Shown piece after piece: positions 1 through 51,843 of a DNA stretch of 64,000 bases. The DNA is taken from sequence record OR885871. One strand, 5' to 3'. This DNA comes from Escherichia phage vB_EcoM_JN03. Position numbers and translations under genes: made by a program. Positions within the stretch are counted from its first letter, which is position 1; each line of letters opens with the position of its first letter. Below the pieces are notes generated by a model. The model had not been told where the DNA came from and did no database searches. It worked only from the letters and a program-made list of their open reading frames with translations.

Positions 1-1
1 T

Positions 2-2509
2 TCTACAATTACCTGGGTCTATAATGGGGGTTCAGCGATTGGCGGTGAAACCGAAATCACGTTAGACATCGTTGTTGATGATGTTCCAGCCATTGATATA
101 AACGGAAGTCGCCAGTATAAAAATCTGGGGTTCACATTCGATCCATTAACCAGTAAAATCACTCTTGCGCAAGAACTGGATGCGGAGGATGAAGTTGTTG
201 TAATTATCAATGGAACGCCAAACATCTATAATCAAATTGATTATACTTTGCGGGAAGTGGCTCGTGTAACCAATGTTAAAGATACAGAGGTCATTTATTT
301 TAGTGTTGGTGCTGTGTTAAGTGGATATAAAGTTATCTATGATAAAGTAACACAGAGATCATATTTTATTCCAGAGTTACCGACTGGAACCACGGCGGTC
401 AGCCTTAGTTCTTCGGCTGTACTTGTGCATTCTGCTGGTAGTGTTGATCTGGGCGCATTAGCTGTATCTCGTGAAGAATACGTAACATTGTCTGGGACAT
501 TTGATTCTGGTGCTGTCATCAATGTTAAAAATGAATTACTCACCCACACGGATGGAAAGTATCGCTGGGATGGGGAATTCCCCAAAATCGTTCCGGATGG
601 TTCAACTCCGGCGACGTCTGGTGGCATTGGTATTGGGTCATGGGTTGCAGTAGGTAATGAAGCAATACGTGTAGAGCTTGCAAGTCCTGCAAGTGGGTAT
701 GGTGCTGAAATGGTAGCACTGAAACAGCCAGTTTCTGGCTCAAAAGAGCGCACTGTTTACGACTGGATTGCTGATATCATAACTGCAAAGGATGGGGATA
801 GTATTGTTGCAGATGGTATTAATAATGATGCTGTTGGTATAAACGCTTTCCTACCTGTACTGGCAGCAGCGCAGCGTGAACTCCTTTTAGTTCCTGGCGT
901 TTATTTGATAAACGATGACATTACAATAGATATTCCGGTAACGATCCAGCCAGGTGCAATCCTGAAGCCTAGAAATGGTGCGCAACTTACGTTCAAATCA
1001 GAGATAAGAGCTGGATGCTATAAAATATTCGACACCGAGGATGATTTTTACACGTCACCTGTCGCCGTGCCATCTGTAAAGATAGCAAAAGGCGGAGTAA
1101 AACCAGAGTGGTTTGGTGCTGCTACGGTGAGTTCTTATGATGAGATTGCATCAGCGGTTAACTGCTCTCCGGCATTCATGAAAGCGTGGAGGGCAACAAC
1201 TGGGGAATATACCGCAAACGTTACGGCATCATACAGGCAGTCTGAGTACATGCACTCGTATATAGACCTATCCGCTGGAAAATACCGCATGGATAAAGAG
1301 GTATTCCTTGGTCACACTGATTTCACACCAACAACTGTAAGATACAACAAAAACGGTGGTGGCGTTATAGGGCAAGGTGCAGGTTTATCTATTCTGGTAT
1401 TCACTGACAGCGAGTATGCTGGGAACGCATATTTTACCGCAAATGATATGTCAGGAGAAATGCACACGTTTAAAGGATTTAAATGTACAGCATTCGATCC
1501 ATCAAAAACAGGCACTGCTCAGTATGAAACAAAAGTTGGCGCAATGATTCTGATTGGTAGCGCTGATTCCATAACTACTTCTGATTTATGGGCCGCTGGA
1601 GCGACTACTGTCGTTGCAGATACTAATGGCTTTGGTAGAGGTGGTGTTGGCATTCAGTTTGATTCTCTTGTAGACCATCAATTTTCTGACCTGTTAGTTG
1701 AACATTGTGTGCATGGGGTGGCATTCAGTTCATGCATTTCAACAGGAAATAACATTAAGGGGTTTGCAAACAAAATTAGTGATTTGTCATTCGGAAACTA
1801 CATCCCTGACTGGCCTCAAATGGTATCACAAACAACTAAGAATACTATAGGGGTTAACGGTTTCGAGTCTAAATTCTGCCTGAATAACCCAATAACATTT
1901 GGCACATATGACAACATGGTTGATATAACCGGTGTTGTTGTTGATGGTCGTGCAGAGTCCTCACTGTCAGTCGTTACCAACCGTGTGATTGGATTTGGTG
2001 TTGGTGGTGGTGTGTCAGGCACTATTTCTGGGTCTGCCAGGAATCTGCTTTTAGGACTAATTGCAGATTTCGGGGTCTCATTTGCAGGAAGGGACGGCGC
2101 ACCATTAAGACTTAATTTCGATATCGAGAATATTGTTGGGGCCTCATCTTCTGAAAACGCCGTTGTCGCTGTTGATAAATCTGACTCCAATTTAATTGGT
2201 TCGATTGGTATCTCATCATCTGTGTTTCCTATATTGAGGTCATCTAGCACCACCACCACAATTGAAATAAATGCTAGCGACATAACACTAACAACAGGAA
2301 GCCCTTCTGGAACAAATGCAATCTTATGTAAAGGTGGTAACTTAAACGTCACGGCTTTAAAGATATCAAACTCAACAGGAATAACTGGGTTAGTCTACGC
2401 AGAAAATAGTTCTGTATTACTACCTACACACACTATAAGCCCAACAAGAGCAGTGACAAAAGTTGGCGGAGCGACTATTAAATCGTACTCTATAACTGAT
2501 TTTGCTTAA
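2..2509 (+). CDS. Tailspike / receptor-binding protein TSP-A, 5'-partial (continues upstream of window)
   Basis: Frame is open from nt 2 to the stop at 2507-2509; the ORF-track start at 248 is an internal TTG. Upstream translation (...GGETEITLD...NIYNQIDYTLREVARVTNVKDTEVIYF) parallels the first ~175 aa of TSP-C. Carries the conserved module (NVKD-EVIYF, SGYKVIYD, GSVDLGALAVSREEYVTL, NVKNELL, YRWDG, GSTP..SGG.G.G.W) followed by a Gly/Thr/Asn/Ser-rich divergent C-terminal region. Confidence 0.75.
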   Translation, partial: STITWVYNGGSAIGGETEITLDIVVDDVPAIDINGSRQYKNLGFTFDPLTSKITLAQELDAEDEVVVIINGTPNIYNQIDYTLREVARVTNVKDTEVIYFSVGAVLSGYKVIYDKVTQRSYFIPELPTGTTAVSLSSSAVLVHSAGSVDLGALAVSREEYVTLSGTFDSGAVINVKNELLTHTDGKYRWDGEFPKIVPDGSTPATSGGIGIGSWVAVGNEAIRVELASPASGYGAEMVALKQPVSGSKERTVYDWIADIITAKDGDSIVADGINNDAVGINAFLPVLAAAQRELLLVPGVYLINDDITIDIPVTIQPGAILKPRNGAQLTFKSEIRAGCYKIFDTEDDFYTSPVAVPSVKIAKGGVKPEWFGAATVSSYDEIASAVNCSPAFMKAWRATTGEYTANVTASYRQSEYMHSYIDLSAGKYRMDKEVFLGHTDFTPTTVRYNKNGGGVIGQGAGLSILVFTDSEYAGNAYFTANDMSGEMHTFKGFKCTAFDPSKTGTAQYETKVGAMILIGSADSITTSDLWAAGATTVVADTNGFGRGGVGIQFDSLVDHQFSDLLVEHCVHGVAFSSCISTGNNIKGFANKISDLSFGNYIPDWPQMVSQTTKNTIGVNGFESKFCLNNPITFGTYDNMVDITGVVVDGRAESSLSVVTNRVIGFGVGGGVSGTISGSARNLLLGLIADFGVSFAGRDGAPLRLNFDIENIVGASSSENAVVAVDKSDSNLIGSIGISSSVFPILRSSSTTTTIEINASDITLTTGSPSGTNAILCKGGNLNVTALKISNSTGITGLVYAENSSVLLPTHTISPTRAVTKVGGATIKSYSITDFA

Positions 2510-2513
2510 CAAA

Positions 2514-2540
2514 AACCCCGCTTCGGTGGGGTTCTTATTA
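2514..2540 (+). terminator. Rho-independent terminator (aaccccgcttcggtggggtt + U-tract)
   Basis: GC-rich perfect hairpin immediately after the TSP-A stop, followed by a T-rich run. Confidence 0.7.
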
Positions 2541-2571
2541 TACCTTTGTTCATAAATTTTATTAGTTCAGA

Positions 2572-2579
2572 CTAAATAC
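2572..2579 (+). promoter_or_regulatory. Late-promoter-like box CTAAATAC upstream of TSP-B
   Basis: 7/8 match to T4 late promoter TATAAATA; the same box recurs upstream of several structural genes in this window. Confidence 0.45.
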
Positions 2580-2611
2580 CCCATATTGGTCATCCTTTAT
2601 GGGGTATTATC

Positions 2612-4525
2612 ATGATTTCTCAATTCAATCAACCACGCGGCTCCACTTCCATAGAAGTTAACAAACAATCTATCGCTCGAAATTTCGGTGTCAAAGAAGA
2701 CGAAGTCATTTATTTCACTGTCGGTATTGATCTCAGCGGATTTAAAGTAATTTATGATGAGTCTACCCAACGGGCTTATTCTCTTCCTTCGGGTATTGTT
2801 TCAGGAACGATTGCGATAAGTCTGAACGAACAAGCCATCCTTACTCATTCTTCTGGCTCTGTTGACCTTGGGGAATTAGCAGTAAGCCGCGAAGAATATG
2901 TGACTTTACCTGGTTCTTTTAATTTCGGTCATACCATTAATGTGAAAAATGAACTTCTTGTTCACGATGATAAAAAATATCGATGGGATGGTTCTTTGCC
3001 AAAGGCAGTTGCCGCTGGTTCTACACCCGATAACTCAGGCGGTGTTGGTTTAGGTGCATGGTTGAGTGTTGGTGATGTATCATTGAGAGCGGATTTGGCT
3101 AGTGGCACACTTGGTAAAGGTGCGAATCTTTTGACATATAAGTCACAAGTATCAAACTCGGTTGCTATAAGCCAACAAATTAAAAATAGTGAAAGGGTTT
3201 CTGTTTTTGAGTATTTGGCTAAGCCTATTCCTGGTTTTGATAATGCATCAGCATTCGCTGCTATGAAAGCTGATGCTGAAGCAGGTGTTGTAATAACAGT
3301 ACCTTCAGGAGTATATGAAACATCTGAACCACTGAGATTCACAAAACCTGTTCAAATATGGTTTGATGTAGGAGTGCGAATAAAACTTACATCTGGTGCA
3401 CATGACCATGTTGTGGAAATAGATTTACGTGGACAAGATGAGGGGTATTGGGGGTATAAACCTTTCTTTGGTGGTGGCAGGGTTATTCTTGATGGTCTTG
3501 GTCATGCTAAGTACGGGCTATCACTTCGTGGCGTAATATCTGGTGGTTTTCCTGGTATTCAAGCAACCAATATAACAACTGCTGGGTTATATCTGGCTTG
3601 GACTCAATGCTGTACATACACTGATTTTATTTGCTCTAATAACGTGGAGGTTTTCACAACAAAACCCCTGCACGGTATTTTAGTAGATAAAGATAACAAT
3701 CCGTCAAATCCACGTGGTACATCATGCGATATCTTTATTAACCCATGTGTAGAGCACACTGCGGGTGATGGGTTTGTAGGACTAAGCCTGATGAACTCAA
3801 TGGTTATAAACGGAACAATCGAGGGAAACCTTGGCGCAGGCATTTCATTGGGGCATCCTACAGATAATACTTACACTGCACTGGGTAATACATTTCTTGG
3901 TATTGACCTTGAGGTGAACACGCTAACTGATATTGTGATTAACAAGTTTTCACACATGAACGAGTTCATAGGACTCAAATCAGGTTATTCATCTCCATCA
4001 GTTCAGGTCAGAGGTTTTCGTAACTATTTCTCTGGAGGTACTGTTAGCGATTTCGACTTCAGGCCAGATAGCCATGACAACCACGTACAGGATGTAACAC
4101 TTTTAGCTGAGTTTCCTGTTGTTAATGATGAAGGGATAAGAAACACTTATGAAAGATTATGGAATCTTAACAATGCTCAAGTTAACGTAAGCACAAACCC
4201 TGTTAACACAAGAAGCAATCAGCCTATAGCGGGAGGTGAGACAGTAACGTTAGACCCATATAAAGCATCCTATGTTGTATGCACCGCAACAGGAACACCT
4301 ATTAATATAGTTTCTGCCACCAAAAAATTAGATGGAGCAAGAATAGATTTGACAATTCACAATGCATCAGGAACAGATTCATTAGTCATTAACTGGGCAT
4401 CAGATATTAGAGTTGGCAATTTTACTCCTCCACCAGCAGGTAAACATAAGGGGTTATCACTAAGATATGATGCTAATTACGGTTATTGGACTGTAGTTGG
4501 TGTTGGACTGGACGCTTTATCGTGA
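2612..4525 (+). CDS. Tailspike / receptor-binding protein TSP-B (637 aa)
   Basis: N-terminus carries the conserved module shared with the other three genes (GVKEDEVIYF, SGFKVIYD, GSVDLGELAVSREEYVTL, NVKNELLVH, YRWDG, GSTPDNSGGVGLGAWLSVG); divergent C-terminal domain. Confidence 0.75.
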   Translation: MISQFNQPRGSTSIEVNKQSIARNFGVKEDEVIYFTVGIDLSGFKVIYDESTQRAYSLPSGIVSGTIAISLNEQAILTHSSGSVDLGELAVSREEYVTLPGSFNFGHTINVKNELLVHDDKKYRWDGSLPKAVAAGSTPDNSGGVGLGAWLSVGDVSLRADLASGTLGKGANLLTYKSQVSNSVAISQQIKNSERVSVFEYLAKPIPGFDNASAFAAMKADAEAGVVITVPSGVYETSEPLRFTKPVQIWFDVGVRIKLTSGAHDHVVEIDLRGQDEGYWGYKPFFGGGRVILDGLGHAKYGLSLRGVISGGFPGIQATNITTAGLYLAWTQCCTYTDFICSNNVEVFTTKPLHGILVDKDNNPSNPRGTSCDIFINPCVEHTAGDGFVGLSLMNSMVINGTIEGNLGAGISLGHPTDNTYTALGNTFLGIDLEVNTLTDIVINKFSHMNEFIGLKSGYSSPSVQVRGFRNYFSGGTVSDFDFRPDSHDNHVQDVTLLAEFPVVNDEGIRNTYERLWNLNNAQVNVSTNPVNTRSNQPIAGGETVTLDPYKASYVVCTATGTPINIVSATKKLDGARIDLTIHNASGTDSLVINWASDIRVGNFTPPPAGKHKGLSLRYDANYGYWTVVGVGLDALS

Positions 4526-4573
4526 CATCACCAACATTATAAAATGATGTTGTTGCTGTTAAAATTTAAATAA

Positions 4574-4598
4574 CCCCGCTTTGGCGGGGTTCTTGTTA
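4574..4598 (+). terminator. Rho-independent terminator (aaccccgctttggcggggtt + U-tract)
   Basis: Near-identical copy of the hairpin at 2514-2540; part of a ~100-bp repeated intergenic cassette. Confidence 0.7.
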
Positions 4599-4629
4599 TA
4601 CCTTTGTTCATAAATTTTATTAGTTCAGA

Positions 4630-4637
4630 CTAAATAC
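4630..4637 (+). promoter_or_regulatory. Late-promoter-like box CTAAATAC upstream of TSP-C
   Basis: Same cassette as at 2572-2579. Confidence 0.45.
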
Positions 4638-4672
4638 CCCATATTGGCAAATCCTTTATGGGGTATTTTCAA

Positions 4673-7438
4673 ATGACCAGAAATGTAGAAGAATTATTCG
4701 GCGGCGTAATCACAGCTCCTCACCAGATTCCTTTCACGTATAAATCAAATGTCGGTGGAGAAACTTTCCTTTCTTTGCCGTTCCATCCCGTCACTGGTGT
4801 TATCACAATCAACGGTGGTATGCAAGTTCCGTTAGACAACTTTGAAATCGAAGGAAATACGTTGAATCTCGGGCGCGCATTGTCCAAAGGCGATGTTGTG
4901 TATTGCTTATTCGATAAAATTCTTTCGCCAGAAGATACAGCCAAAGGTATCCGCATATACAAATTTCAGGCCGTGGGAGGTGAAACCGAGTTCACTCCTG
5001 ATTTCACATCCTATGGTGTCCAATCTCTTTATATCGGTGGCGAGTACAAAACACCCGAAATTGAATATTCCTATAACAGCACGACAGGGAAAGTGTCTTT
5101 GCAAACTGCACTGACTGCAGGCGTTTGGGTAGTCGCTGAAATGTCTGTTAAACAACCGAATATCAGTCCGGCGTTTGACCGAAGTATTCAAGAAATCGCC
5201 CGTTCTGCTAATGTAAAAGACTCTGAAGTCATCGTTAGTACGGACACCATATCTTTGTTGGATGGGAAGAAAGTTGTTTATGATATAGCGACGCAAACCA
5301 GTTATGGTTTACCAACCATTCCTGATGGTTCTGTCATTTCTTCTGTATCTGCTGGGAAATTGAATTACAACCCAGGTGATGTGCAGGTTGATTTGTTGCC
5401 TTTAGAAGATTCATTTATTAATGTGATAAACACTCTGGGGCGCAATGATGGTGCCAAGTATATTGGAGAATGCCATTCTGTTGCTGATCTCAGGAATACT
5501 GAACCCACTATGGATGGACAACGCATTATTCTTAAGCAACACACTGCGGGTACTCTTCTTGGCGGAGGGGTATTCCGTGCGTTAATTGATGGTACAGGAA
5601 AGACTGATAATAACGGTACTGTGATCAAAACTGTTGGCGGCGCGGCATGGTTACGTGTTAATGCTGATAGAGTTAACCCATTCATGTTTGGTGCTTTGGG
5701 TGGTTCTAATGATGATACTATTCCAGTACAATCTTGTGTGGATAGTGGTAAGGCCACACAATTAACTGATGCACATTACGTTAGCAATATCCAGTTAAAA
5801 TATAATACGTCGTCTATTTATGGGTCTGGATTACATTACTCAAGGTTGCATCAGTTGCCTTCTGCTACTGGGAATTGTATTACCATAAAAGATACATGCT
5901 CCCTTATTGTATTAGACGCCTTTGGGGTATATGGCACAGGTGCACAACAAGGCATGCCATTTACTGCGGGCACAACAGGTATCTATGTAGAAACTCCTTC
6001 AGGTCTCTCAGCCGATTATCCGTTCCACACTACCGCAGACCCAAGACGCGACTTGTGTATTTCTAAGGTCCATATAGCAGGTTTTGATGAATATGGGTTA
6101 AATATTGATAGTGGTAACTTTAGTGTTACTACAGATTCTCTTTTAGTCAACCACATCAATCAGGTGGGTGTCCGTTGTGCTACTACTGATTGGACTTGGA
6201 CAAATATCCAGGTTAATACCTGCGGTAAACAATGTCTGGTTCTTGATGGTTGTGGTAATGGTCGTATTATTGGCGGTAAATTCATTTGGGCTAACTGGCA
6301 ACCTTATGGTACAGTAGGACAGTTCCCAGGCATTACTATTAATAACAGCCAGAATATGGTTATTAATGGTATTGAGGTACAAGATTGTGGCGGGAATGGC
6401 ATTGAGATTAGCGATTCATATTCAATTTCCATGAACGGATTGAACACCAATCGTAACGGCATCAATGCTAACAACACTTTCTACAACATCGTATTTAACA
6501 AAAGCGATGCAGTTATCAACGGATTCGTAGGACTCAATTATGCCGCGAATAGTGGTTCAGGTGCTAACTCTAGTGCAGGCAATTTTCAGTTCCTGTCTAA
6601 TGATTGTAGTGTCACCATTAATGGTGTGGTTGAGACTGGTTATATGGGCATTAACTTTATTGGTGATAACAATATTATCAACCCCACCAATTCCGACCTG
6701 AGCATTAACGGATTGGTTAATTATTCCAAGACTGGTTTGCAAACCATGAACGAGACCCCTACATTTGATGGTGTTAGCACTACACCTGTTTATGTAAGTG
6801 TCCCATCTTCTGTAGGGCAAGTAAATGGTCTGAGACTATCACAAGCCAACAAAGATAAATTACTGTATTCAAGAACAGCAGGTCCAGAAGGTATTACCAT
6901 GGCTGCTGTTGTAGTACCCACCATATCTGGAGCTGAAGTATTTAACTTCATGGCCATTGGTTCAGGGTTTAGTGATACATCCAACAGTCTTCATCTTCAA
7001 TTAGTTATAGACGCTTCTGGAAAACAAACAATTGCTTTGCTATTGGGGGGCGATGGTACAACCCAAATTTTATCTGGGGATTTACCTAACGACCTTAAAC
7101 TACAAAGTGGTGTACCATATCATATAGCTATTGGTGCTAAACCTGGATATTTCTGGTGGAGTATTCTTAATATTCAGACGGGTAAGAGAATCAGACGGTC
7201 ATTCCGAGGCGCTTATTTAGCCGTACCATTTAATTCTATATTCGGATTAACTTCTTCATTAACATTCTTCTCGGATAGCAATGCTGGTGGGGATGCTTGT
7301 TCTGGGGTTGGTGCTAAAGTGTATGTTGGTATGTTCTCTTCTGAGAACGATTATGTAGCTTCACGATACTACAACCTGATTAATCCTGTAGACCCTACTA
7401 AGTTAATTAGTTACCGTATATTGGATTCTTCTATTTAA
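4673..7438 (+). CDS. Tailspike / receptor-binding protein TSP-C (~921 aa) with long N-terminal extension
   Basis: Start moved to the ATG at 4673 because the ORF-track ATG at 4658 lies inside the conserved hairpin. The conserved module is internal (IQEIARSANVKDSEVI ... from ~aa 175), preceded by an N-terminal domain like the upstream part of TSP-A. Confidence 0.7.
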   Translation: MTRNVEELFGGVITAPHQIPFTYKSNVGGETFLSLPFHPVTGVITINGGMQVPLDNFEIEGNTLNLGRALSKGDVVYCLFDKILSPEDTAKGIRIYKFQAVGGETEFTPDFTSYGVQSLYIGGEYKTPEIEYSYNSTTGKVSLQTALTAGVWVVAEMSVKQPNISPAFDRSIQEIARSANVKDSEVIVSTDTISLLDGKKVVYDIATQTSYGLPTIPDGSVISSVSAGKLNYNPGDVQVDLLPLEDSFINVINTLGRNDGAKYIGECHSVADLRNTEPTMDGQRIILKQHTAGTLLGGGVFRALIDGTGKTDNNGTVIKTVGGAAWLRVNADRVNPFMFGALGGSNDDTIPVQSCVDSGKATQLTDAHYVSNIQLKYNTSSIYGSGLHYSRLHQLPSATGNCITIKDTCSLIVLDAFGVYGTGAQQGMPFTAGTTGIYVETPSGLSADYPFHTTADPRRDLCISKVHIAGFDEYGLNIDSGNFSVTTDSLLVNHINQVGVRCATTDWTWTNIQVNTCGKQCLVLDGCGNGRIIGGKFIWANWQPYGTVGQFPGITINNSQNMVINGIEVQDCGGNGIEISDSYSISMNGLNTNRNGINANNTFYNIVFNKSDAVINGFVGLNYAANSGSGANSSAGNFQFLSNDCSVTINGVVETGYMGINFIGDNNIINPTNSDLSINGLVNYSKTGLQTMNETPTFDGVSTTPVYVSVPSSVGQVNGLRLSQANKDKLLYSRTAGPEGITMAAVVVPTISGAEVFNFMAIGSGFSDTSNSLHLQLVIDASGKQTIALLLGGDGTTQILSGDLPNDLKLQSGVPYHIAIGAKPGYFWWSILNIQTGKRIRRSFRGAYLAVPFNSIFGLTSSLTFFSDSNAGGDACSGVGAKVYVGMFSSENDYVASRYYNLINPVDPTKLISYRILDSSI

Positions 7439-7444
7439 AAATAT

Positions 7445-7468
7445 ACCCCTCTTCGGAGGGGTCTTTAC
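7445..7468 (+). terminator. Rho-independent terminator (acccctcttcggaggggt + U-tract)
   Basis: Perfect hairpin right after the TSP-C stop. Confidence 0.6.
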
Positions 7469-7489
7469 TAGAAAAACAATGAGGTACTT

Positions 7490-9535
7490 ATGAACGAAAT
7501 GTTTAGTCAAGGTGGTAAAGGTTCGACTGGAATCTTAACCAATAAACAAGCAGTAGCCAGACACTTTGGTGTTAAACAATCTGAGGTTGTTTATGCCAAA
7601 TCAGGACAGTCCTTGTCTGGTTATAAAGTGATCTACGATAAGGTATCTCAACGTGCCTACGCTCTCCCTTCTAACATTGGTGCTGTAACGGTCACCAGTT
7701 TGGTCGACGGCATCCTCACGCACTCTGGAGGCACCGTAGATTTGGGTGCATTGGCTGTGTTAAGGGAAGAGTATGTTACTCTTGTTGAAAATTTTACTTC
7801 TGGATTTACGATTCGTGTCAAGAACGAAGTCGTGAGCGATGGGGTGAGTCTATATCGTTGGGATGGTGCTTTACCTAAAACCGTTGCACCTGGCTCAACA
7901 CCTGAAACAACTGGTGGAGTTGGTTTAGGTGCATGGTTGAGTGTTGGTGTTGCCACATTAAGAAGTGAATTAACATTGAATGTTTCAGATATTAATGGAT
8001 TGATTAACGTTAATACAAGAAACAAAAATTTCATGTATGTTACATCATCGTTTCGAGGGGGTGGAGGTGCTGGTGTATATGTATGGAATCCCACAAAAAA
8101 TAAATCATTACATAACGGAGCGACTATCATAGACCCATCAAGGACTCTACCGATAAACTGGGATTCTCAGTCGCAAATAGATGATTGGTTTACAATTTCA
8201 TCCACAGATGGGGTGGGATGTTTTGAATTAATTGAGGGGGAGAGCTCGGTTAATCCATTGCAGTGGGGCTGCTTGGGCGATTCATCAAAAGACAACCCAC
8301 ATAGTGGGTATGATAACTCTTTAATATCTGATTATGTTGATGACTACGCTGAATCAGTAAATAAAACAGTATTTTGGCCTCACGGTATATTTAGATTCAC
8401 TGGCCCACAGCAAAGAAAGACAAGGCATGATGGACATGAATACATTAGAATGAATAGTGAGTTTTCTACTGTTTTTATTATTGATAATCAGACGCCAATA
8501 ACTTTTCTAAAAGGAAAAGGGATTGGGACCGACCATCAGAAACTGTATGCCCACGGTTCAAGAGGAATAGAATATATTGGCAACCCTAAACGAATCCATA
8601 CTCTTCTTGATGCATACATGTACACGACATCATGGGAGCATTTTGCTGTTCGTGGATTTAAATATGGATTTGATATAAATTTTGTTTCTTTCCATATTCA
8701 GAATTTCTATTTTACTGATAATGAAATTGGAATTTACCCAAAACCACTAATGCCGCCATTGCAAGCTGCCGCACCAAGTACAATGCTATCATTATCTTAC
8801 GGTGCATTTGATTTCAGTAAGAATGGAATAGTATTCACTGAGAGATTTGGGCTTGGCGAGGCAGAAAACGTCATAAACGTAAATCTATCTTCTGTTGTGT
8901 TCGAACAAAATGAATTTGACGGATTCAGTTGTGCTAACTATCCATTACCTGTCGGTGTGAAAAATGCCAACAACAGGGTTATGAACCTTACAGTAAATAA
9001 TTGCTGGGCTGAACTTAACGGTAGAGCTGGTTTCAATTTCGAGAACGCTGACGTAACTGCGAATTCATTGAGAATAAATGAAGCGGATGAATTGATTTAT
9101 CCAGCAGGGGCAAGGACATACTCTATTGATGTAAATGGTGTAAGGGAAACAAACGTACTAAAATCGTCACTTTATGGAGCGCATAATATAGAAGCTCCGG
9201 TATCTGGTCAAATGATAATAAAACCAGATGGTAGCATTTATTCTGGTGCGACAATGCCTTTTACTGTTACAAAGACATCGGAAGGTCAATTTAAATTAAC
9301 GAATGCATCATCTACTCAGGGGTTTCAATACGTATCAATAGAGGTTATGCCATTCGATAGAGCAAGGATTGATACTGTTGTGACATGTGACCCATCAGAT
9401 GTCGCAGCGTTCGTTCAGTTTGGTACAATATCAAGCTATAAGATTGAATTTACATCGAGAGGCACATCTACATTTGTAACTCCAGAGGCTGGTTTCGCAG
9501 TTAAATTCTCATGGGTTCACCCTCTTAATAATTAA
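7490..9535 (+). CDS. Tailspike / receptor-binding protein TSP-D (681 aa)
   Basis: RBS gagg 7 nt upstream. N-terminal conserved module present (GVKQSEVVYA, SGYKVIYDKVSQRAY, GTVDLGALAVLREEYVTL, RVKNEVV, YRWDG, GSTPETTGGVGLGAWLSVG); divergent C-terminus. Confidence 0.75.
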   Translation: MNEMFSQGGKGSTGILTNKQAVARHFGVKQSEVVYAKSGQSLSGYKVIYDKVSQRAYALPSNIGAVTVTSLVDGILTHSGGTVDLGALAVLREEYVTLVENFTSGFTIRVKNEVVSDGVSLYRWDGALPKTVAPGSTPETTGGVGLGAWLSVGVATLRSELTLNVSDINGLINVNTRNKNFMYVTSSFRGGGGAGVYVWNPTKNKSLHNGATIIDPSRTLPINWDSQSQIDDWFTISSTDGVGCFELIEGESSVNPLQWGCLGDSSKDNPHSGYDNSLISDYVDDYAESVNKTVFWPHGIFRFTGPQQRKTRHDGHEYIRMNSEFSTVFIIDNQTPITFLKGKGIGTDHQKLYAHGSRGIEYIGNPKRIHTLLDAYMYTTSWEHFAVRGFKYGFDINFVSFHIQNFYFTDNEIGIYPKPLMPPLQAAAPSTMLSLSYGAFDFSKNGIVFTERFGLGEAENVINVNLSSVVFEQNEFDGFSCANYPLPVGVKNANNRVMNLTVNNCWAELNGRAGFNFENADVTANSLRINEADELIYPAGARTYSIDVNGVRETNVLKSSLYGAHNIEAPVSGQMIIKPDGSIYSGATMPFTVTKTSEGQFKLTNASSTQGFQYVSIEVMPFDRARIDTVVTCDPSDVAAFVQFGTISSYKIEFTSRGTSTFVTPEAGFAVKFSWVHPLNN

Positions 9536-9597: not shown

Positions 9598-9629
9598 CTC
9601 TATAAAATGGCACTCGATGGAGCATCAAA

Positions 9630-30920: not shown

Positions 30921-30945
30921 ATTTAAAATTTATTCAATAAACGGG

Positions 30946-30974
30946 GTTTACTTCTTCAATAAACCCCGTATACT
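30946..30974 (+). promoter_or_regulatory. Sigma70-like early promoter (GTTTAC - 17 nt - TATACT) embedded in a hairpin
   Basis: Same GGGGTTTAC -35 context as the cassettes at 49.7 and 50.05 kb; 17-nt spacer; upstream of the gene at 31008. Confidence 0.45.
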
Positions 30975-34797: not shown

Positions 34798-35543
34798 TGG
34801 TTTCTCTACAGGCTTTGCGCAAACTTAATGACTTTGAAAATCGTCATCATACATTTCAGCAATATTCCTTGCCGTTTAAGGAACTGACTTGCGTAACTAC
34901 CGAAAATGGTCGTCACTATGTTTCTCCCACTGGAGTCAAACTGACTTCAGTGACGACCATGTTAGGGCGTACTGGTGACCACACATGGTTAGAAGCCTGG
35001 CGGGACAAGTTGGGGCATGAAGCTGCTGATATAGAAACGCATCGTTGCGCAGACCGTGGGGAAAAACTTCATTTGGCTTGTGAGTTGTATCTCAAAAACA
35101 GACCAATGAAAGAAGTTCTGGAAGCTGCAGGGGAATACGTGTTTATGTTCAAACAGGTTTTCCCCTACCTTAACAAAATGAGCAAGATATATGCACAAGA
35201 GATTCCATTATATAGCGAAGTCCTGGGTCTTGCTGGTCGTGTTGACCTCATCGGGGTTTACGAAGGAATTCCAAGCATAATCGATTTCAAAACATCCAAC
35301 ACCCTAAAAACTCGAAGCATGATAGAAGATTATAGTATTCAATTGTGTCTATACTCAGTCATGTTTCAACAAATGTTTAATGTCAAGATAGAGCGTTTAA
35401 TCAATATTATATCCAACGAAAATGCCCTTGTTCCCACCATAATCGAATTCGATCGCAAAGACGTTATTTCTAAAATGTTTGACCGTGTCCGTCTGTATCA
35501 CAAAATGGACAAAGAACAGAAAGGAATCTGGGCGGATCGCTAA
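34770..35543 (+). CDS. PD-(D/E)xK-type nuclease superfamily protein
   Basis: Motif GRVDLIGV...SIIDFKTS (D ... D-x-K) with an upstream acidic residue, typical of RecB/Cas4/lambda-exo-like nucleases. Confidence 0.5.
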   Translation: MAKIFGWDVMVSLQALRKLNDFENRHHTFQQYSLPFKELTCVTTENGRHYVSPTGVKLTSVTTMLGRTGDHTWLEAWRDKLGHEAADIETHRCADRGEKLHLACELYLKNRPMKEVLEAAGEYVFMFKQVFPYLNKMSKIYAQEIPLYSEVLGLAGRVDLIGVYEGIPSIIDFKTSNTLKTRSMIEDYSIQLCLYSVMFQQMFNVKIERLINIISNENALVPTIIEFDRKDVISKMFDRVRLYHKMDKEQKGIWADR

Positions 35544-42612: not shown

Positions 42613-42727
42613 AGATTCCCTTTACTTCATTCTTCAATAACTCTTTTCAACGTATTATTGACCTCACTTAAACGAAGCGCCCTGGCAAACGGGGCGCACA
42701 TTTGAACTGAAACAGGAAGACTATACC

Positions 42728-49314: not shown

Positions 49315-49338
49315 GGCGGGGAAACCCGCCTTCATTTT
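49315..49338 (+). terminator. Terminator hairpin (ggcggggaaacccgcc + ttcatttt)
   Basis: Right after the vWA gene stop. Confidence 0.6.
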
Positions 49339-49349
49339 GAGATATGCTT

Positions 49350-49661
49350 ATGTCAAACAAACCAACTTATGTTGAAGTAATGCGTGTTCTGGCTCAGTAC
49401 GCTTGTGACAACCTGAACATGGAAACTTGGCGCAACGGGGATCACAAGGACAAGTTTGATAACATTGATGATAATATCGATGCTTTAGCGCCGTTACGGG
49501 TTAAGAATGATCTCGGCGGTGACGATCTTGACATGATTGAGCTGGTCATGGAAATCGAAGAAGAGTACGATGTAGAAATTAGTGACGAGTGGGTGGGTAA
49601 ACATGGAGATGATCCTACCCTCGGAGAGTTAGCTGAACTCGTCGTTGCCCTGCGCAAGTAA
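49350..49661 (+). CDS. Acyl carrier protein-like protein with Ser-to-Asp substitution at the phosphopantetheine site
   Basis: VKNDLGGDDLDMIELVMEIEEEYDVEISDE aligns with E. coli ACP [29 protein letters not shown]; the DSL serine is Asp (DDL). Confidence 0.7.
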   Translation: MSNKPTYVEVMRVLAQYACDNLNMETWRNGDHKDKFDNIDDNIDALAPLRVKNDLGGDDLDMIELVMEIEEEYDVEISDEWVGKHGDDPTLGELAELVVALRK

Positions 49662-49667
49662 CTGAAG

Positions 49668-49734
49668 ATCCCCAACGTTTGTTGGGGATTTTTACTTTTA
49701 GGGGTTTACTTCTATAAGGCAAATGCGTATTATT
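49668..49734 (+). promoter_or_regulatory. Terminator hairpin + sigma70-like early promoter cassette, copy 1
   Basis: Hairpin ccccaacgtttgttgggg, then GTTTAC - 18 nt - TATTAT; 53 bp identical to copy 2. Confidence 0.6.
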
Positions 49735-49782
49735 GAATTCATCGGGCGGGGCGTTCCCGTTCATTGAAAGAAGGTATATATT

Positions 49783-50013
49783 ATGTCTGCTGTATCACGC
49801 GTTGTTGACCTCACCCCATTTTGCCTGAACAATATTGCTAACCCTAAATTGGTATTGTTTAAAGATCCCTCTAATTTCTGCTGGCTGGCAAGTTGTGATA
49901 CCCACAACGGACGTCGTGCTGTTTGGGAGTTTCCCGCAACTGATGAAGGTAGAATTTCCGCTATAAGAAAATTAGAACTGGAAAATTCAAGCCGAGAAAT
50001 TAAACAGGCATAA
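49783..50013 (+). CDS. Hypothetical protein (76 aa)
   Basis: Sits between the two promoter cassettes. Confidence 0.45.
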   Translation: MSAVSRVVDLTPFCLNNIANPKLVLFKDPSNFCWLASCDTHNGRRAVWEFPATDEGRISAIRKLELENSSREIKQA

Positions 50014-50079
50014 CTTTTATTAAATCCCAACAAACGTTGGGGATTTTTACTTTTAGGGGTTTACTTCTATAAGGCAAAT
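50013..50079 (+). promoter_or_regulatory. Terminator hairpin + sigma70-like early promoter cassette, copy 2
   Basis: Hairpin cccaacaaacgttgggg (loop is the reverse complement of copy 1's loop), then an identical promoter. Confidence 0.6.
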
Positions 50080-50139
50080 GCGTATTATTCAATAACTGGC
50101 GAACGATGGGTTCACCAGGTTGAAAGGTAAGATTATATC

Positions 50140-50379
50140 ATGAAGAACAAAATGGTAGAAACTTCAGTGGAGATTGATCGTAATTGGGGCTTGCTCCGCG
50201 CTAAAGGGTTCCGTCGTGTGTATGCGACCAAAGAAGTATATGCCCAGCGCCGCGATGTTATCATCAGCAAGAAGGGAAAAGATTGGGTTGCCGAAGAAGT
50301 CGATGTCGAAACAGGCGTCGTCGGAAAGGTGAAAGCCAAGGCCGCGATCCTCTTCGCTCTTCTGAAGCACATCAGTTAA
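50140..50379 (+). CDS. Hypothetical basic protein (79 aa)
   Basis: Downstream of cassette 2; RBS aaaggtaag. Confidence 0.45.
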   Translation: MKNKMVETSVEIDRNWGLLRAKGFRRVYATKEVYAQRRDVIISKKGKDWVAEEVDVETGVVGKVKAKAAILFALLKHIS

Positions 50380-50438
50380 TTCTATAACTTAGGGTGGGGT
50401 ATGATTACCCCGCCTATTTGAAATGCAGGAACTATACC

Positions 50439-50945
50439 ATGACCGATCAACAAATTCAAGATTTATTTTACCTCGTCCATGATAAGTCCCATATTATGCG
50501 CCCTGGCACTGTTTCTCCTGTCGTCCGTGATCTGGTGCAAGAATTACGCGAACCGCAGATGACCACACTTTATCGTGGGTTGCCTAAAGAGGACGTTGTG
50601 CGTTTAGAGATGATGTTTGAACGAGGCGACATGTTCCAGACATGGGATTCTTGTCTTAGCTTCAGTGAATTGAAGCATGTGGCCAAAAAATTTTCTAAAT
50701 CGTATGGAACCAGAGCTGTTGCTCGCATTTGTTACAAACATCGAAACGGACTCCCAGAGGGGCTTAATGTCTTTGGTTCTCTAGAAAAATTTGTGAACAA
50801 AGACGATGAATCAGAAATGGATATGCTGGACTTGGCGTCCATGGAGAAAGAATGGATATTCTGCCAGCCTCGCGTCTTCCCAGTTTCAAGAAAAATGGCA
50901 ACAGATGGGACGATGGTTTTTACCGTATCACTTATTACTCTATAA
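50439..50945 (+). CDS. Hypothetical protein (168 aa)
   Basis: Start context tatttgaaatgcaggaactataccATG, repeated before the next gene; begins MTDQ. Confidence 0.5.
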   Translation: MTDQQIQDLFYLVHDKSHIMRPGTVSPVVRDLVQELREPQMTTLYRGLPKEDVVRLEMMFERGDMFQTWDSCLSFSELKHVAKKFSKSYGTRAVARICYKHRNGLPEGLNVFGSLEKFVNKDDESEMDMLDLASMEKEWIFCQPRVFPVSRKMATDGTMVFTVSLITL

Positions 50946-50998
50946 ACCCACGGCGGGGTATCTTTGCCCCGCCTATTTGAAATGCAGGAACTAATATC

Positions 50999-51764: not shown

Positions 51765-51843
51765 ATACGATAGTTTATTGAAACCCTTTACTCAACATGG
51801 TGACATCCCTATCATTTTATCCAATGAAATAAGGAGAATCACC

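What the first reader, a model, noticed from the sequence alone, without database searches (positions are those of the whole stretch)
49668..50079. Duplicated terminator-promoter cassette with flipped hairpin loop
Two 53-bp identical segments each combine a terminator hairpin and a sigma70-like promoter (GTTTAC, 18-nt spacer, TATTAT) and bracket a 76-aa gene. The hairpin stems are identical, but the four-nucleotide loops are reverse complements of each other (gttt versus aaac), as if the palindromic hairpin had been inverted. The same GGGGTTTAC -35 context recurs at ~30946. These cassettes look like portable early-gene expression units that could mediate gene shuffling.
Basis: seen in the sequence. 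Interest (0 to 1): 0.5.

Follow-up and report, generated by a model that had tools for sequence, protein, structure and literature searches.

The report
Duplicated terminator–promoter cassette around a small gene
A phage of the ViI/CBA120 group carries two near-identical terminator-plus-early-promoter units around one small gene; relatives have gained or lost exactly that gene at these units, and the hairpin loop flips orientation between strains, which makes this a new example of a known way phages shuffle genes.

Summary
Window 49671-49738 and 50026-50093 are a 68-nt direct repeat, identical over 54 nt and 355 bp apart, around a 76-aa ORFan (g76). The loops are exact reverse complements (GTTT/AAAC). 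One correction: copy 2's 5' arm lacks one C.

The window is a Kuttervirus (Ackermannviridae). Across 39 cassettes from 27 genomes the stem, T-tract, -35 and -10 are 99-100% conserved. The spacer has 15 alleles of fixed length.

CBA120-type relatives lack exactly one 355-bp unit. Sequence identity to some relatives jumps from 74% (ACP gene) to 98-99% (g76) at cassette 1. Spacer alleles are homogenised between the two copies in some genomes.

All four loop-orientation combinations occur. A 5-nt loop variant and a second neighbouring hairpin family also occur in both orientations. The closest relative, SPTD1, differs from the window over 1151 nt only by this loop.

Verdict: this is a PeSL-type regulatory cassette, as described for T4-like phages, here in another phage family. 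It is confined to one locus, not dispersed. The loop flip matches known inverted-repeat spacer inversion by template switching. Promoter and terminator activity are inferred, not shown. Interest is moderate: a new member of a known kind.

The parts
49344..49661 (+). Acyl carrier protein gene. It lies upstream of cassette 1, and its transcript would end at hairpin 1.
   Evidence: ORF. PHROG 4154 and Pfam PP-binding matches. The allele is mosaic among relatives, 74-77% or 97-100% identity.
49668..49689 (+). Cassette 1 hairpin: ATCCCCAAC-GTTT-GTTGGGGAT, 9 bp plus G-U extensions. The loop GTTT is at 49677-49680.
   Evidence: Sequence. RNA fold -19.8 kcal/mol, z = -3.9. Arms 99% conserved and 99.6% paired in 39 cassettes, with one compensatory C-G to U-A pair.
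49689..49703 (+). T-tract of the terminator (TTTTTACTTTT) plus AGGG. This is also the AT-rich stretch upstream of the -35.
   Evidence: Conservation 0.99, with 11 of 15 columns invariant.
49704..49733 (+). Promoter 1. The -35 is GTTTAC (49704-49709; sigma-70 register TTTACT 49705-49710), then a 17-nt spacer, then the -10 TATTAT (49728-49733). The start site is predicted near 49740.
   Evidence: Boxes are invariant while the spacer has 15 alleles of constant length. GTTTAC is the T4 early -35 consensus (PMC1524935).
49783..50013 (+). g76, a 76-aa ORFan bracketed by the two cassettes.
   Evidence: PHROG 22629, unknown function; no Pfam match. Homologues in 31 Ackermannviridae records, always after the ACP gene. 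Synonymous codon differences outnumber non-synonymous ones in all 6 comparisons.
50025..50043 (+). Cassette 2 hairpin: TCCC-AAC-AAAC-GTTGGGGA. The loop AAAC is at 50032-50035. The 5' arm lacks one C.
   Evidence: listed as terminator-like. Searches show the weakened fold, -9.2 vs -16.3 kcal/mol.
50059..50088 (+). Promoter 2, identical to promoter 1. It drives orf141 and probably the genes after it.
50140..50379 (+). orf141 homologue (79 aa, unknown function), downstream of cassette 2.
   Evidence: PHROG 804. CBA120 orf141.
50386..50434 (+). Second linker family, copy 1. A hairpin GGGTGGGGTA-TGAT-TACCCCGCC followed by TATTTGAAATGCAGGAACTA, upstream of the ADP-ribosylase gene. No promoter boxes.
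   Evidence: Fold -18.9 kcal/mol.
50945..50993 (+). Second linker family, copy 2, downstream of the ADP-ribosylase gene. It is a direct repeat of 50386-50434 (86%, spacing 559).
   Evidence: Relatives Sal38 and 3HA11 lack the bracketed gene and keep one element.
30941..30974 (+). The other GGGGTTTAC site. It is an intergenic promoter-like element: -35 GTTTAC (30946-30951) lies inside a 10-bp hairpin ACGGGGTTTA/TAAACCCCGT, and the -10 is TATACT (30969-30974).
   Evidence: Fold -14.0 kcal/mol, z = -4.5.

Best explanation
Each unit is a composite regulatory cassette in the variable early-gene region of a Kuttervirus (ViI/CBA120-like) phage.

What it does (inferred):
- An intrinsic terminator (8-9 bp GC-rich stem, 4-nt loop, U-tract) ends transcription of the upstream small gene.
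- The T-rich tail also serves as the AT-rich stretch upstream of a host sigma-70, T4-early-type promoter (TTTACT-N17-TATTAT).
- That promoter restarts transcription about 45 nt before the next gene.

What the duplication causes (shown by comparison):
- Two copies lie in direct orientation, 355 bp apart, around the ORFan g76. They give 54-68 bp of homology.
- Recombination or copy-choice between them removes g76 and leaves one hybrid cassette. The CBA120-type genomes have this form. The reverse event would insert g76.
- The copies also homogenise each other by gene conversion.
- They serve as junctions for exchange with co-infecting relatives.

The flipped loop:
- It is an in-place inversion of the spacer of a perfect inverted repeat.
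- The most likely cause is DNA polymerase template switching between the arms.
- It is predicted to be neutral for RNA folding, so both orientations persist and the loop flip-flops in the population.
For: Anatomy.

Footprint over 39 cassettes from 27 genomes (alignment A1):
- Arms 0.99, T-tract 0.99, -35 0.99 and -10 1.00 conserved.
- Loop 0.63, spacer 0.68 (15 alleles, constant length) and left flank 0.75.
- The stem is 99.6% paired, with one compensatory pair.

Outside support:
- One GenBank record annotates a terminator under the match to this cassette (H88).
- GTTTAC is the T4 early -35 (PMC1524935).
- TTTACW-N17-TAYWAT with the stem-loop just upstream is the PST/T4 class of PeSL (PMC4122927).

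Indel:
- At least 13 listed records, including CBA120, Se-G and PM10, match in two pieces spanning 796-806 nt instead of 1151 nt.
- CBA120 is 100% identical to the window in the vWA, ACP and orf141 segments but has one cassette.
- That cassette carries the g76-type spacer allele joined to the orf141 5'UTR, as expected of a deletion product.

Homogenisation: some genomes have two different spacer alleles, A/B (pertopsoe, CAU_YEP3, SP-9-14). Others have A/A (window, SJ3, KE31) or B'/B' (Det7).

Mosaic junction: window vs pertopsoe, CAU_YEP3 and pSal-SNUABM-02 gives ACP 73-75% but g76 98-99%.

Loop inversion:
- All four two-copy states occur: GTTT/AAAC, AAAC/GTTT, AAAC/AAAC and GTTT/GTTT. Single copies occur in both states.
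- The 5-nt variant occurs as GGTTT and as AAACC. No intermediate between GTTT and AAAC was seen among 39 cassettes; the few other loops are length variants or belong to a diverged stem.
- SPTD1 and Se_AO1 are identical to the window over at least 150 nt on each side of the flipped loop.
- A second hairpin family nearby also occurs flipped, TGAT/ATCA.
- A 6-bp-arm GNRA hairpin is never flipped in 27 genomes.
- Both orientations fold at -16.9 kcal/mol.
- The mechanism and its preference for long arms are described in PMC8604942 and PMC8794818.
Against: - No transcript, start-site or termination data exist for this phage group in the searchable literature. Promoter, terminator and 'early' timing rest on sequence and conservation only.
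- The generic promoter scan is barely above background: 52 hits found vs 37 expected.
- That scan lists cassette 2's hairpin as terminator-like but not cassette 1's. A likely reason, which I did not test, is that its G-T-tolerant stem extends into the T-run.
- The direction of events, deletion vs insertion, cannot be fixed from the present sample.
- Recombination could spread a single ancient flip, so the number of independent inversions may be small. At least 2-3 are needed: the 4-nt loop, the 5-nt loop and hairpin family 2.
- The high conservation of the cassette could partly reflect repeated homogenisation rather than selection for function.
Confidence: 0.78

Rival explanations
1. The repeat is a passive leftover of a local tandem duplication of an intergenic region. 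The hairpin and the hexamers are not a working terminator or promoter, and the repeat has no role in gene exchange.
For: The cassette is confined to one locus, with 1-2 copies per genome. Promoter-like matches are common by chance. There are no expression data.
Against: Conservation is box-specific: the -35 and -10 are invariant while the 17-nt spacer between them has 15 alleles of constant length. That is hard to explain without function. The g76 homologue in Klebsiella phage Magnus also has a TTTAC-N17-TAATAT site upstream, without the hairpin. Exact one-unit indels and identity jumps sit at the cassette.
Confidence: 0.07
2. The one-unit loss of g76 and the loop flips come from the same replication error process: hairpin-stalled synthesis followed by copy-choice or template switching. 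Homologous recombination or circle excision as in the PeSL model would then not be needed.
For: Both phenomena sit on the same hairpins. Loop flips are seen in both linker families, and both families flank gene-sized indels. The 355-bp and 559-bp spacings are within the reach of slippage between direct repeats. Template switching at inverted repeats was first proposed in phage T4 (PMC8604942).
Against: Identity jumps at the cassettes between distant relatives require inter-genome exchange, not just intramolecular slippage. These phages encode UvsY- and UvsW-like and gp46/47 recombination proteins (SPTD1 annotation). That makes homologous recombination the default expectation.
Confidence: 0.12
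3. The two loop orientations are old alleles spread by recombination between co-infecting phages, or they arose by stepwise point mutation. They are not recurrent in-place inversions.
For: Recombination is frequent in this region. Short-patch conversion from a relative with the other loop could give the window/SPTD1 difference. The arms and right flank are identical across many genomes.
Against: Stepwise mutation is excluded. No intermediate between GTTT and AAAC occurs among the 39 cassettes; the few other loops are length variants or sit in a diverged stem. At least one true inversion is needed for the 4-nt loop. Separate inversions are needed for the 5-nt loop (GGTTT/AAACC) and for hairpin family 2 (TGAT/ATCA). 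Single-copy genomes of several genera carry either state.
Confidence: 0.2

Closest known systems
PeSL (promoter-early stem-loop) cassettes of T4-like phages RB49/phi1, PST/T4 and nt-1/KVP40 (Arbiol et al. 2010, PMC2839356; Comeau et al. 2014, PMC4122927)
   Same: Both are composite intergenic motifs under 100 bp: a stem-loop, an AT-rich stretch, a sigma-70-type early promoter, then the Shine-Dalgarno site and start of a small ORFan. The promoter matches the PST/T4 class (TTTACW-N17-TAYWAT, stem-loop just upstream). Two copies flank an ORFan that is absent, with a single hybrid cassette left, in very close relatives. The cassettes lie in a mosaic, variable region.
   Different: The host is an Ackermannviridae phage, not a T4-like phage (the group the PeSL papers call Tquatrovirinae). 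This sequence occurs at one locus only, 1-2 copies per genome, against about 50 dispersed PeSLs in RB49/phi1. Only about four TTTAC-type intergenic promoter sites occur in this 64-kb window. No experimental promoter, terminator or mini-circle data exist. None of the eight papers found that mention PeSLs together with phage concerns Ackermannviridae, judging by title and abstract.
Inverted-repeat spacer (hairpin loop) inversion by template switching (Ripley model; Abraham & Hazkani-Covo 2021, PMC8604942; Monttinen & Loytynoja 2022, PMC8794818)
   Same: The arms are perfect and the spacer is 4-5 nt. The change is an exact reverse complement with no change in the flanks. It is reversible and recurs over short evolutionary distances. 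It is seen on the longer-armed hairpins and not on a 6-bp one.
   Different: Here it sits in a phage transcription terminator that is also a recombination cassette. All four orientation combinations of two tandem copies are seen in natural isolates. Arms are 8-11 bp, at the low end of the range reported in yeast.
T4 early promoters and Rho-independent terminators
   Same: The -35 GTTTAC, an AT-rich upstream stretch, a -10 of TAnnAT type, and a hairpin plus U-tract. An RNA polymerase ADP-ribosylase homologue lies in the same gene cluster.
   Different: The -10 is TATTAT. Activity and timing are untested in Kuttervirus.

Membership tests
PeSL (promoter-early stem-loop) cassette | Sigma-70-like -35 and -10 boxes at 17-nt spacing in an intergenic region, with an AT-rich stretch upstream | tested here: met
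   TTTACT-N17-TATTAT at 49705-49733 and 50060-50088, preceded by ATTTTTACTTTTA. The boxes are invariant in 39 cassettes.
PeSL (promoter-early stem-loop) cassette | A stable stem-loop within or next to the promoter that can terminate or attenuate upstream transcription | tested here: met
   Hairpins at 49668-49689 and 50025-50043 lie just upstream of the -35, as in the PST/T4 class. Folds are -19.8 and -10.6 kcal/mol. A U-tract follows. Only the structure was tested; termination was not.
PeSL (promoter-early stem-loop) cassette | Lies immediately upstream of ORFans in a hyperplastic, mosaic region | tested here: met
   g76 and orf141 have no known function. Per-gene identities to relatives vary independently, 73-100%.
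PeSL (promoter-early stem-loop) cassette | Indels or replacements between close relatives are bounded by the cassettes, leaving one hybrid cassette | tested here: met
   CBA120 and others lack exactly 355 bp. Their single cassette combines the left flank of copy 1 with the right flank of copy 2.
PeSL (promoter-early stem-loop) cassette | Many dispersed copies per genome (about 50 in RB49/phi1), concentrated in variable regions | tested here: not met
   This cassette sequence has 1-2 places in every listed record; 217 records hold 243 places. Only 4 intergenic TTTAC-N16-19-TAnnnT sites occur in the 64-kb window.
PeSL (promoter-early stem-loop) cassette | Promoter and terminator activity shown in reporters; excised mini-circles detected | not testable with these tools
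   This needs wet-lab work. No transcript data were found.
IR spacer inversion by template switching | The spacer is replaced by its exact reverse complement between perfect arms, with flanks unchanged | tested here: met
   Window vs SPTD1 and Se_AO1: the only difference is GTTT vs AAAC.
IR spacer inversion by template switching | Recurrent and reversible, with a preference for longer arms | tested here: met
   All four two-copy states occur. The 5-nt loop and hairpin family 2 are also found flipped. The 6-bp-arm hairpin is never flipped in 27 genomes. The number of independent events is uncertain because of recombination.
Rho-independent terminator | GC-rich stem, short loop, and a U-run directly after the stem | tested here: met
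   One GenBank record annotates a terminator under the match to this cassette (H88).

The most novel reading that the evidence does not exclude
Ackermannviridae may have their own modular shuffling system in the early region. At least two families of intergenic hairpin linkers separate single small genes: a terminator+promoter type and a promoterless hairpin+RBS type. In this reading the hairpins themselves trigger the events. Replication stalls, then template switching produces loop flips, arm extension (Det7 copy 1) and one-unit gene deletions. If so, loop orientation would be a natural read-out of template-switch frequency in phage replication.
Probability: 0.3. Interest if true: 0.5.

Novelty: new member of a known kind. 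Interest (0 to 1): 0.38.

Why it matters
It extends PeSL-type modular shuffling from T4-like phages to the ViI/CBA120 group, which includes phages studied or proposed for controlling Salmonella, E. coli O157 and Dickeya. It explains a small-gene presence/absence polymorphism among near-identical isolates. It also gives an unusually clean natural example of reversible hairpin-loop inversion.

Two practical points follow. The repeat is a likely cause of assembly breaks in this group. The 4-nt flip can be the only difference between two isolates over more than a kilobase, and it should not be scored as four independent SNPs.

Tried and rejected
- A scan of IMG/VR with the hairpin+T-tract pattern gave only 5 loci. 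These were useful but too few, so the GenBank phage collection was used instead.
- I searched for transcript or promoter studies of Kuttervirus, Ackermannviridae and Viunalikevirus. Apart from the sequence-based promoter and terminator predictions in the LIMEstone genome paper, nothing bears on this locus, so activity stays inferred.
- I considered that g76 and orf141 might be diverged paralogues from a gene duplication. They fall in different PHROGs with no shared family, so I rejected this.
- I considered that the cassette is dispersed genome-wide. One search rules this out.
- The first count of structure pairs used a structure shifted by one column. It was redone correctly.
- I compared the window with SPTD1 over 64 kb for other hairpin-loop inversions. 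The finding's loop was the only clean case. One 3-nt TTC/GAA cluster in a highly diverged patch is probably chance. Flips are therefore not common at every hairpin.
- The GGGGTTTAC matches at 35253 and 47831(-) lie in coding sequence and were set aside as probable chance matches.

Full report
**1. What is in the sequence**

- The region holds a 68-nt direct repeat, 49671-49738 and 50026-50093, 355 bp apart start to start.
- The copies differ in the 4-nt hairpin loop: GTTT at 49677-49680 and AAAC at 50032-50035, which are exact reverse complements. They also differ at one base after TATTATT.
- The identical run is 54 nt, 49681-49734 = 50036-50089.
- The 38-nt core occurs only at these two places in the window, with none expected by chance.
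- Each copy reads hairpin (ATCCCCAAC-loop-GTTGGGGAT), T-tract (TTTTTACTTTT), AGGG, GTTTAC, 18 nt, TATTAT. In sigma-70 register this is TTTACT-N17-TATTAT.
- About 45 nt downstream comes a Shine-Dalgarno site and the start codon.
- The repeat brackets a 76-aa ORF, g76, at 49783-50013.
- One detail of the finding is wrong. Copy 2's 5' arm has lost a C (CCCAAC). The stems therefore differ, and the predicted hairpin drops from -16.3 to -9.2 kcal/mol.

**2. Where it comes from**

- The window is a Kuttervirus (Ackermannviridae, the ViI/CBA120 group). The best match is Salmonella phage SPTD1, at 99.7% over 1151 nt.
- The gene order is vWA protein, acyl carrier protein (ACP), [cassette 1], g76, [cassette 2], orf141 homologue, RNA polymerase ADP-ribosylase homologue, then a 92-aa protein.
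- The cassette sequence is found in 217 phage records, all but a few from Ackermannviridae hosts. It always lies downstream of the ACP gene.
- Those 217 records hold 243 places, about 26 more places than records, and no listed record has more than two places. The cassette is therefore not a dispersed element.

**3. Evidence for function**

I aligned 39 cassettes from 27 genomes (alignment A1). Conservation is sharply box-specific:

| Part | Mean majority fraction |
|---|---|
| Stem arms | 0.99 |
| T-tract | 0.99 |
| -35 | 0.99 |
| -10 | 1.00 |
| Loop | 0.63 |
| Spacer between the hexamers | 0.68 |
| Left flank | 0.75 |

- The spacer has 15 different alleles, always the same length.
- The stem is paired in 99.6% of cells, with one compensatory C-G to U-A change.
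- GTTTAC is the T4 early -35 consensus (PMC1524935).
- The Comeau et al. description of PST/T4 PeSLs, TTTACW-N17-TAYWAT with the stem-loop just upstream, fits this unit exactly (PMC4122927).
- One GenBank record annotates a terminator under the match to this cassette (H88).
- g76 is a real gene. It has homologues in 31 records across Kuttervirus, Agtrevirus and Taipeivirus. Synonymous codon differences outnumber non-synonymous ones in every comparison. Its function is unknown.
- Promoter and terminator activity and early timing remain inferences. I found no transcript data.

**4. Evidence for gene shuffling at the cassettes**

(a) Exact one-unit indel.
- At least 13 listed records, including CBA120, Se-G and PM10, match the 1151-nt query in two pieces. 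In the closest ones (CBA120, Se-G, PM10 and similar) the pieces span 796 nt, which is the query minus 355 bp.
- CBA120 is 100% identical to the window in the vWA, ACP and orf141 segments but has one cassette.
- That cassette joins the left flank of copy 1 to the 5'UTR of orf141. It carries the spacer allele that A/B genomes have in front of g76. This is what a deletion between two homogenised copies would leave.

(b) Homogenisation.
- Some two-copy genomes have different spacer alleles in the two copies: pertopsoe, CAU_YEP3, SP-9-14, pSal-SNUABM-02 and ZQ1.
- Others have the same allele twice: the window, SJ3, Se_AO1, KE31, LHE287 and Det7.
- In SJ3 the converted tract runs one base further.

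(c) Mosaic junction.
- Against pertopsoe, CAU_YEP3 and pSal-SNUABM-02 the window is 76-77% identical in vWA and 73-75% in ACP.
- It is 98-99% identical in g76 and 92-93% in orf141.
- In Sal38 only the ACP gene is of the distant type: 97.7% in vWA, 76.6% in ACP and 99.6% in orf141.

(d) A relative without the second cassette.
- In Klebsiella phage Magnus the g76 homologue follows a TTTAC-type promoter without the hairpin.
- There is no cassette between it and the next gene.
- The second cassette is therefore specific to the Kuttervirus/Agtrevirus lineages.

This is the pattern that Arbiol et al. described for PeSLs and ORFan192 of RB49 (PMC2839356).

**5. The flipped loop**

- Two-copy genomes show all four orientation states:

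| Copy 1 / copy 2 | Genomes |
|---|---|
| GTTT/AAAC | window, pertopsoe, CAU_YEP3 |
| AAAC/GTTT | L007, LHE287 |
| AAAC/AAAC | SPTD1, Se_AO1, KE31, SP-9-14, pSal-SNUABM-02, ZQ1 |
| GTTT/GTTT | Det7 |

- Single-copy genomes carry AAAC (CBA120, Sal38, JA15 and others) or GTTT (Marshall, MK-13, EspM4VN, L004).
- A 5-nt variant exists as GGTTT (SJ3, 3HA11) and as AAACC (phage 241).
- No intermediate between GTTT and AAAC occurs among the 39 cassettes. The few other loops are a length variant (AAAAC in YX22) or belong to a diverged stem (AATT in heyday, AATTT in phage 241 copy 2).
- SPTD1 shares even the 1-nt arm deletion with the window. It differs from the window in a 471-nt alignment only by this loop. 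That also accounts for the 0.3% difference.
- Both orientations fold with the same predicted energy, so the flip is probably neutral.
- A second hairpin family in the same region, GGCGGGGTA-TGAT-TACCCCGCC, also occurs flipped (ATCA) in three relatives.
- The 6-bp GNRA hairpin between vWA and ACP is never flipped in 27 genomes.
- In 64 kb of window vs SPTD1, the finding's loop is the only clean inversion.
- This behaviour matches inverted-repeat spacer inversion by template switching. That process is reported to be reversible, recurrent and biased to longer arms (PMC8604942, PMC8794818).
- Det7 copy 1 has an arm extended to 13 bp at the cost of the T-tract. This looks like the companion process, arm homogenisation.
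- Caveat: recombination can spread an existing orientation. The number of independent flips is therefore at least two or three, but otherwise uncertain.

**6. The wider region**

- The ADP-ribosylase gene is flanked by a second direct repeat, 50386-50434 and 50945-50993 (49 nt, 86% identity, 559 bp apart).
- Each copy is a hairpin plus a ribosome-binding region. The similarity continues beyond the 49-nt repeat into the first four codons of both downstream genes (ATGACNGATCAA).
- Sal38 and 3HA11 lack that gene and keep one hybrid element.
- Single small genes in this stretch are thus separated by repeated linkers of two kinds, and each kind is associated with a gene-sized indel.

**7. Comparison with what is known, and verdict**

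- In working terms, this is a PeSL.
- As a family member it meets the features of composition, position, ORFan association and indel behaviour.
- It fails the feature 'many dispersed copies'. It also sits in a different phage family.
- None of the eight papers found that mention PeSLs together with phage concerns Ackermannviridae, judging by title and abstract.
- The loop flip is a known mutational class.
- I rate the finding as a new member of a known kind. Interest is moderate.

Noticed in passing
window 50386-50434 and 50945-50993: A second direct repeat (49 nt, 86%, 559 bp apart) flanks the ADP-ribosylase gene. Each copy is a 9-10 bp hairpin followed by TATTTGAAATGCAGGAACTA, with no promoter boxes. 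Beyond the 49-nt repeat, both downstream genes begin ATGACNGATCAA. Relatives Sal38 and 3HA11 lack the gene and keep one element. In relatives the loop occurs as TGAT or as its reverse complement ATCA.
   Followed up: partly
window 50394-50945: The 183-aa GTG-start ORF overlaps the linker hairpin. The real start of the ADP-ribosylase homologue is probably the ATG at 50439 (168 aa, MTDQQ...), as annotated in CBA120 and SPTD1.
   Followed up: partly
window 49315-49330 and 49344-49661: The ACP gene behaves as an exchangeable module. Relatives carry either a 97-100% allele or a 73-77% allele, independently of their vWA and orf141 identity. The module is bounded by the GGCGGG-GAAA-CCCGCC hairpin and cassette 1. 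That hairpin's GNRA loop (GAAA or GCAA) is never inverted in 27 genomes.
   Followed up: partly
window 30941-30974: An intergenic promoter-like site has the -35 GTTTAC inside a 10-bp hairpin (ACGGGGTTTA/TAAACCCCGT) and a -10 of TATACT. This is the 'stem-loop between the boxes' layout of RB49-type PeSLs. It shares TTTACTTCTTCAATAAA with the promoter upstream of the g76 homologue in Klebsiella phage Magnus (L009, around 1420-1450).
   Followed up: partly
window 2510-2611 and 4570-4657: The intergenic regions between tailspike genes carry a duplicated unit of about 75 nt: a terminator hairpin (CCCCGC-loop-GCGGGG) plus a CTAAATA motif. SPTD1 annotates 7-nt 'Kuttervirus late gene promoter' features in its tailspike intergenic regions. 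The same motif recurs before many late genes, for example near 9600, 16110, 25140 and 26355.
   Followed up: no
window 1-9500 vs SPTD1 (L029): The tailspike genes of the window (753, 637, 926 and 681 aa) match SPTD1 only in short N-terminal stretches, although most of the rest of the window is 95-98% identical. The receptor-binding modules have been swapped.
   Followed up: no
GenBank records SeTs-2, SenASZ3, SenALZ1 and selz: Several deposited assemblies start or end inside this cassette or within 60 nt of g76. A probable reason is that assemblers break the permuted genome at the 68-nt repeat.
   Followed up: no
window 42613-42727 and 51787-51815: There are two further TTTAC-type sites. At 51787, TTTACT-N17-TATCAT lies upstream of the next gene. 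At 42621, TTTACTTCATTCTTCAATAAC...CGTATTATTG resembles the cassette but has a 26-nt gap between the boxes, so it may be a degraded promoter.
   Followed up: no
L010 (Det7) 1383-1412: In Det7 copy 1 the 3' flank of the hairpin has become complementary to the 5' flank (AGAAGTCCCCAAC/GTTGGGGACTTCT, 13 bp, -23.3 kcal/mol). This destroys the T-run and has the signature of arm homogenisation by template switching.
   Followed up: partly
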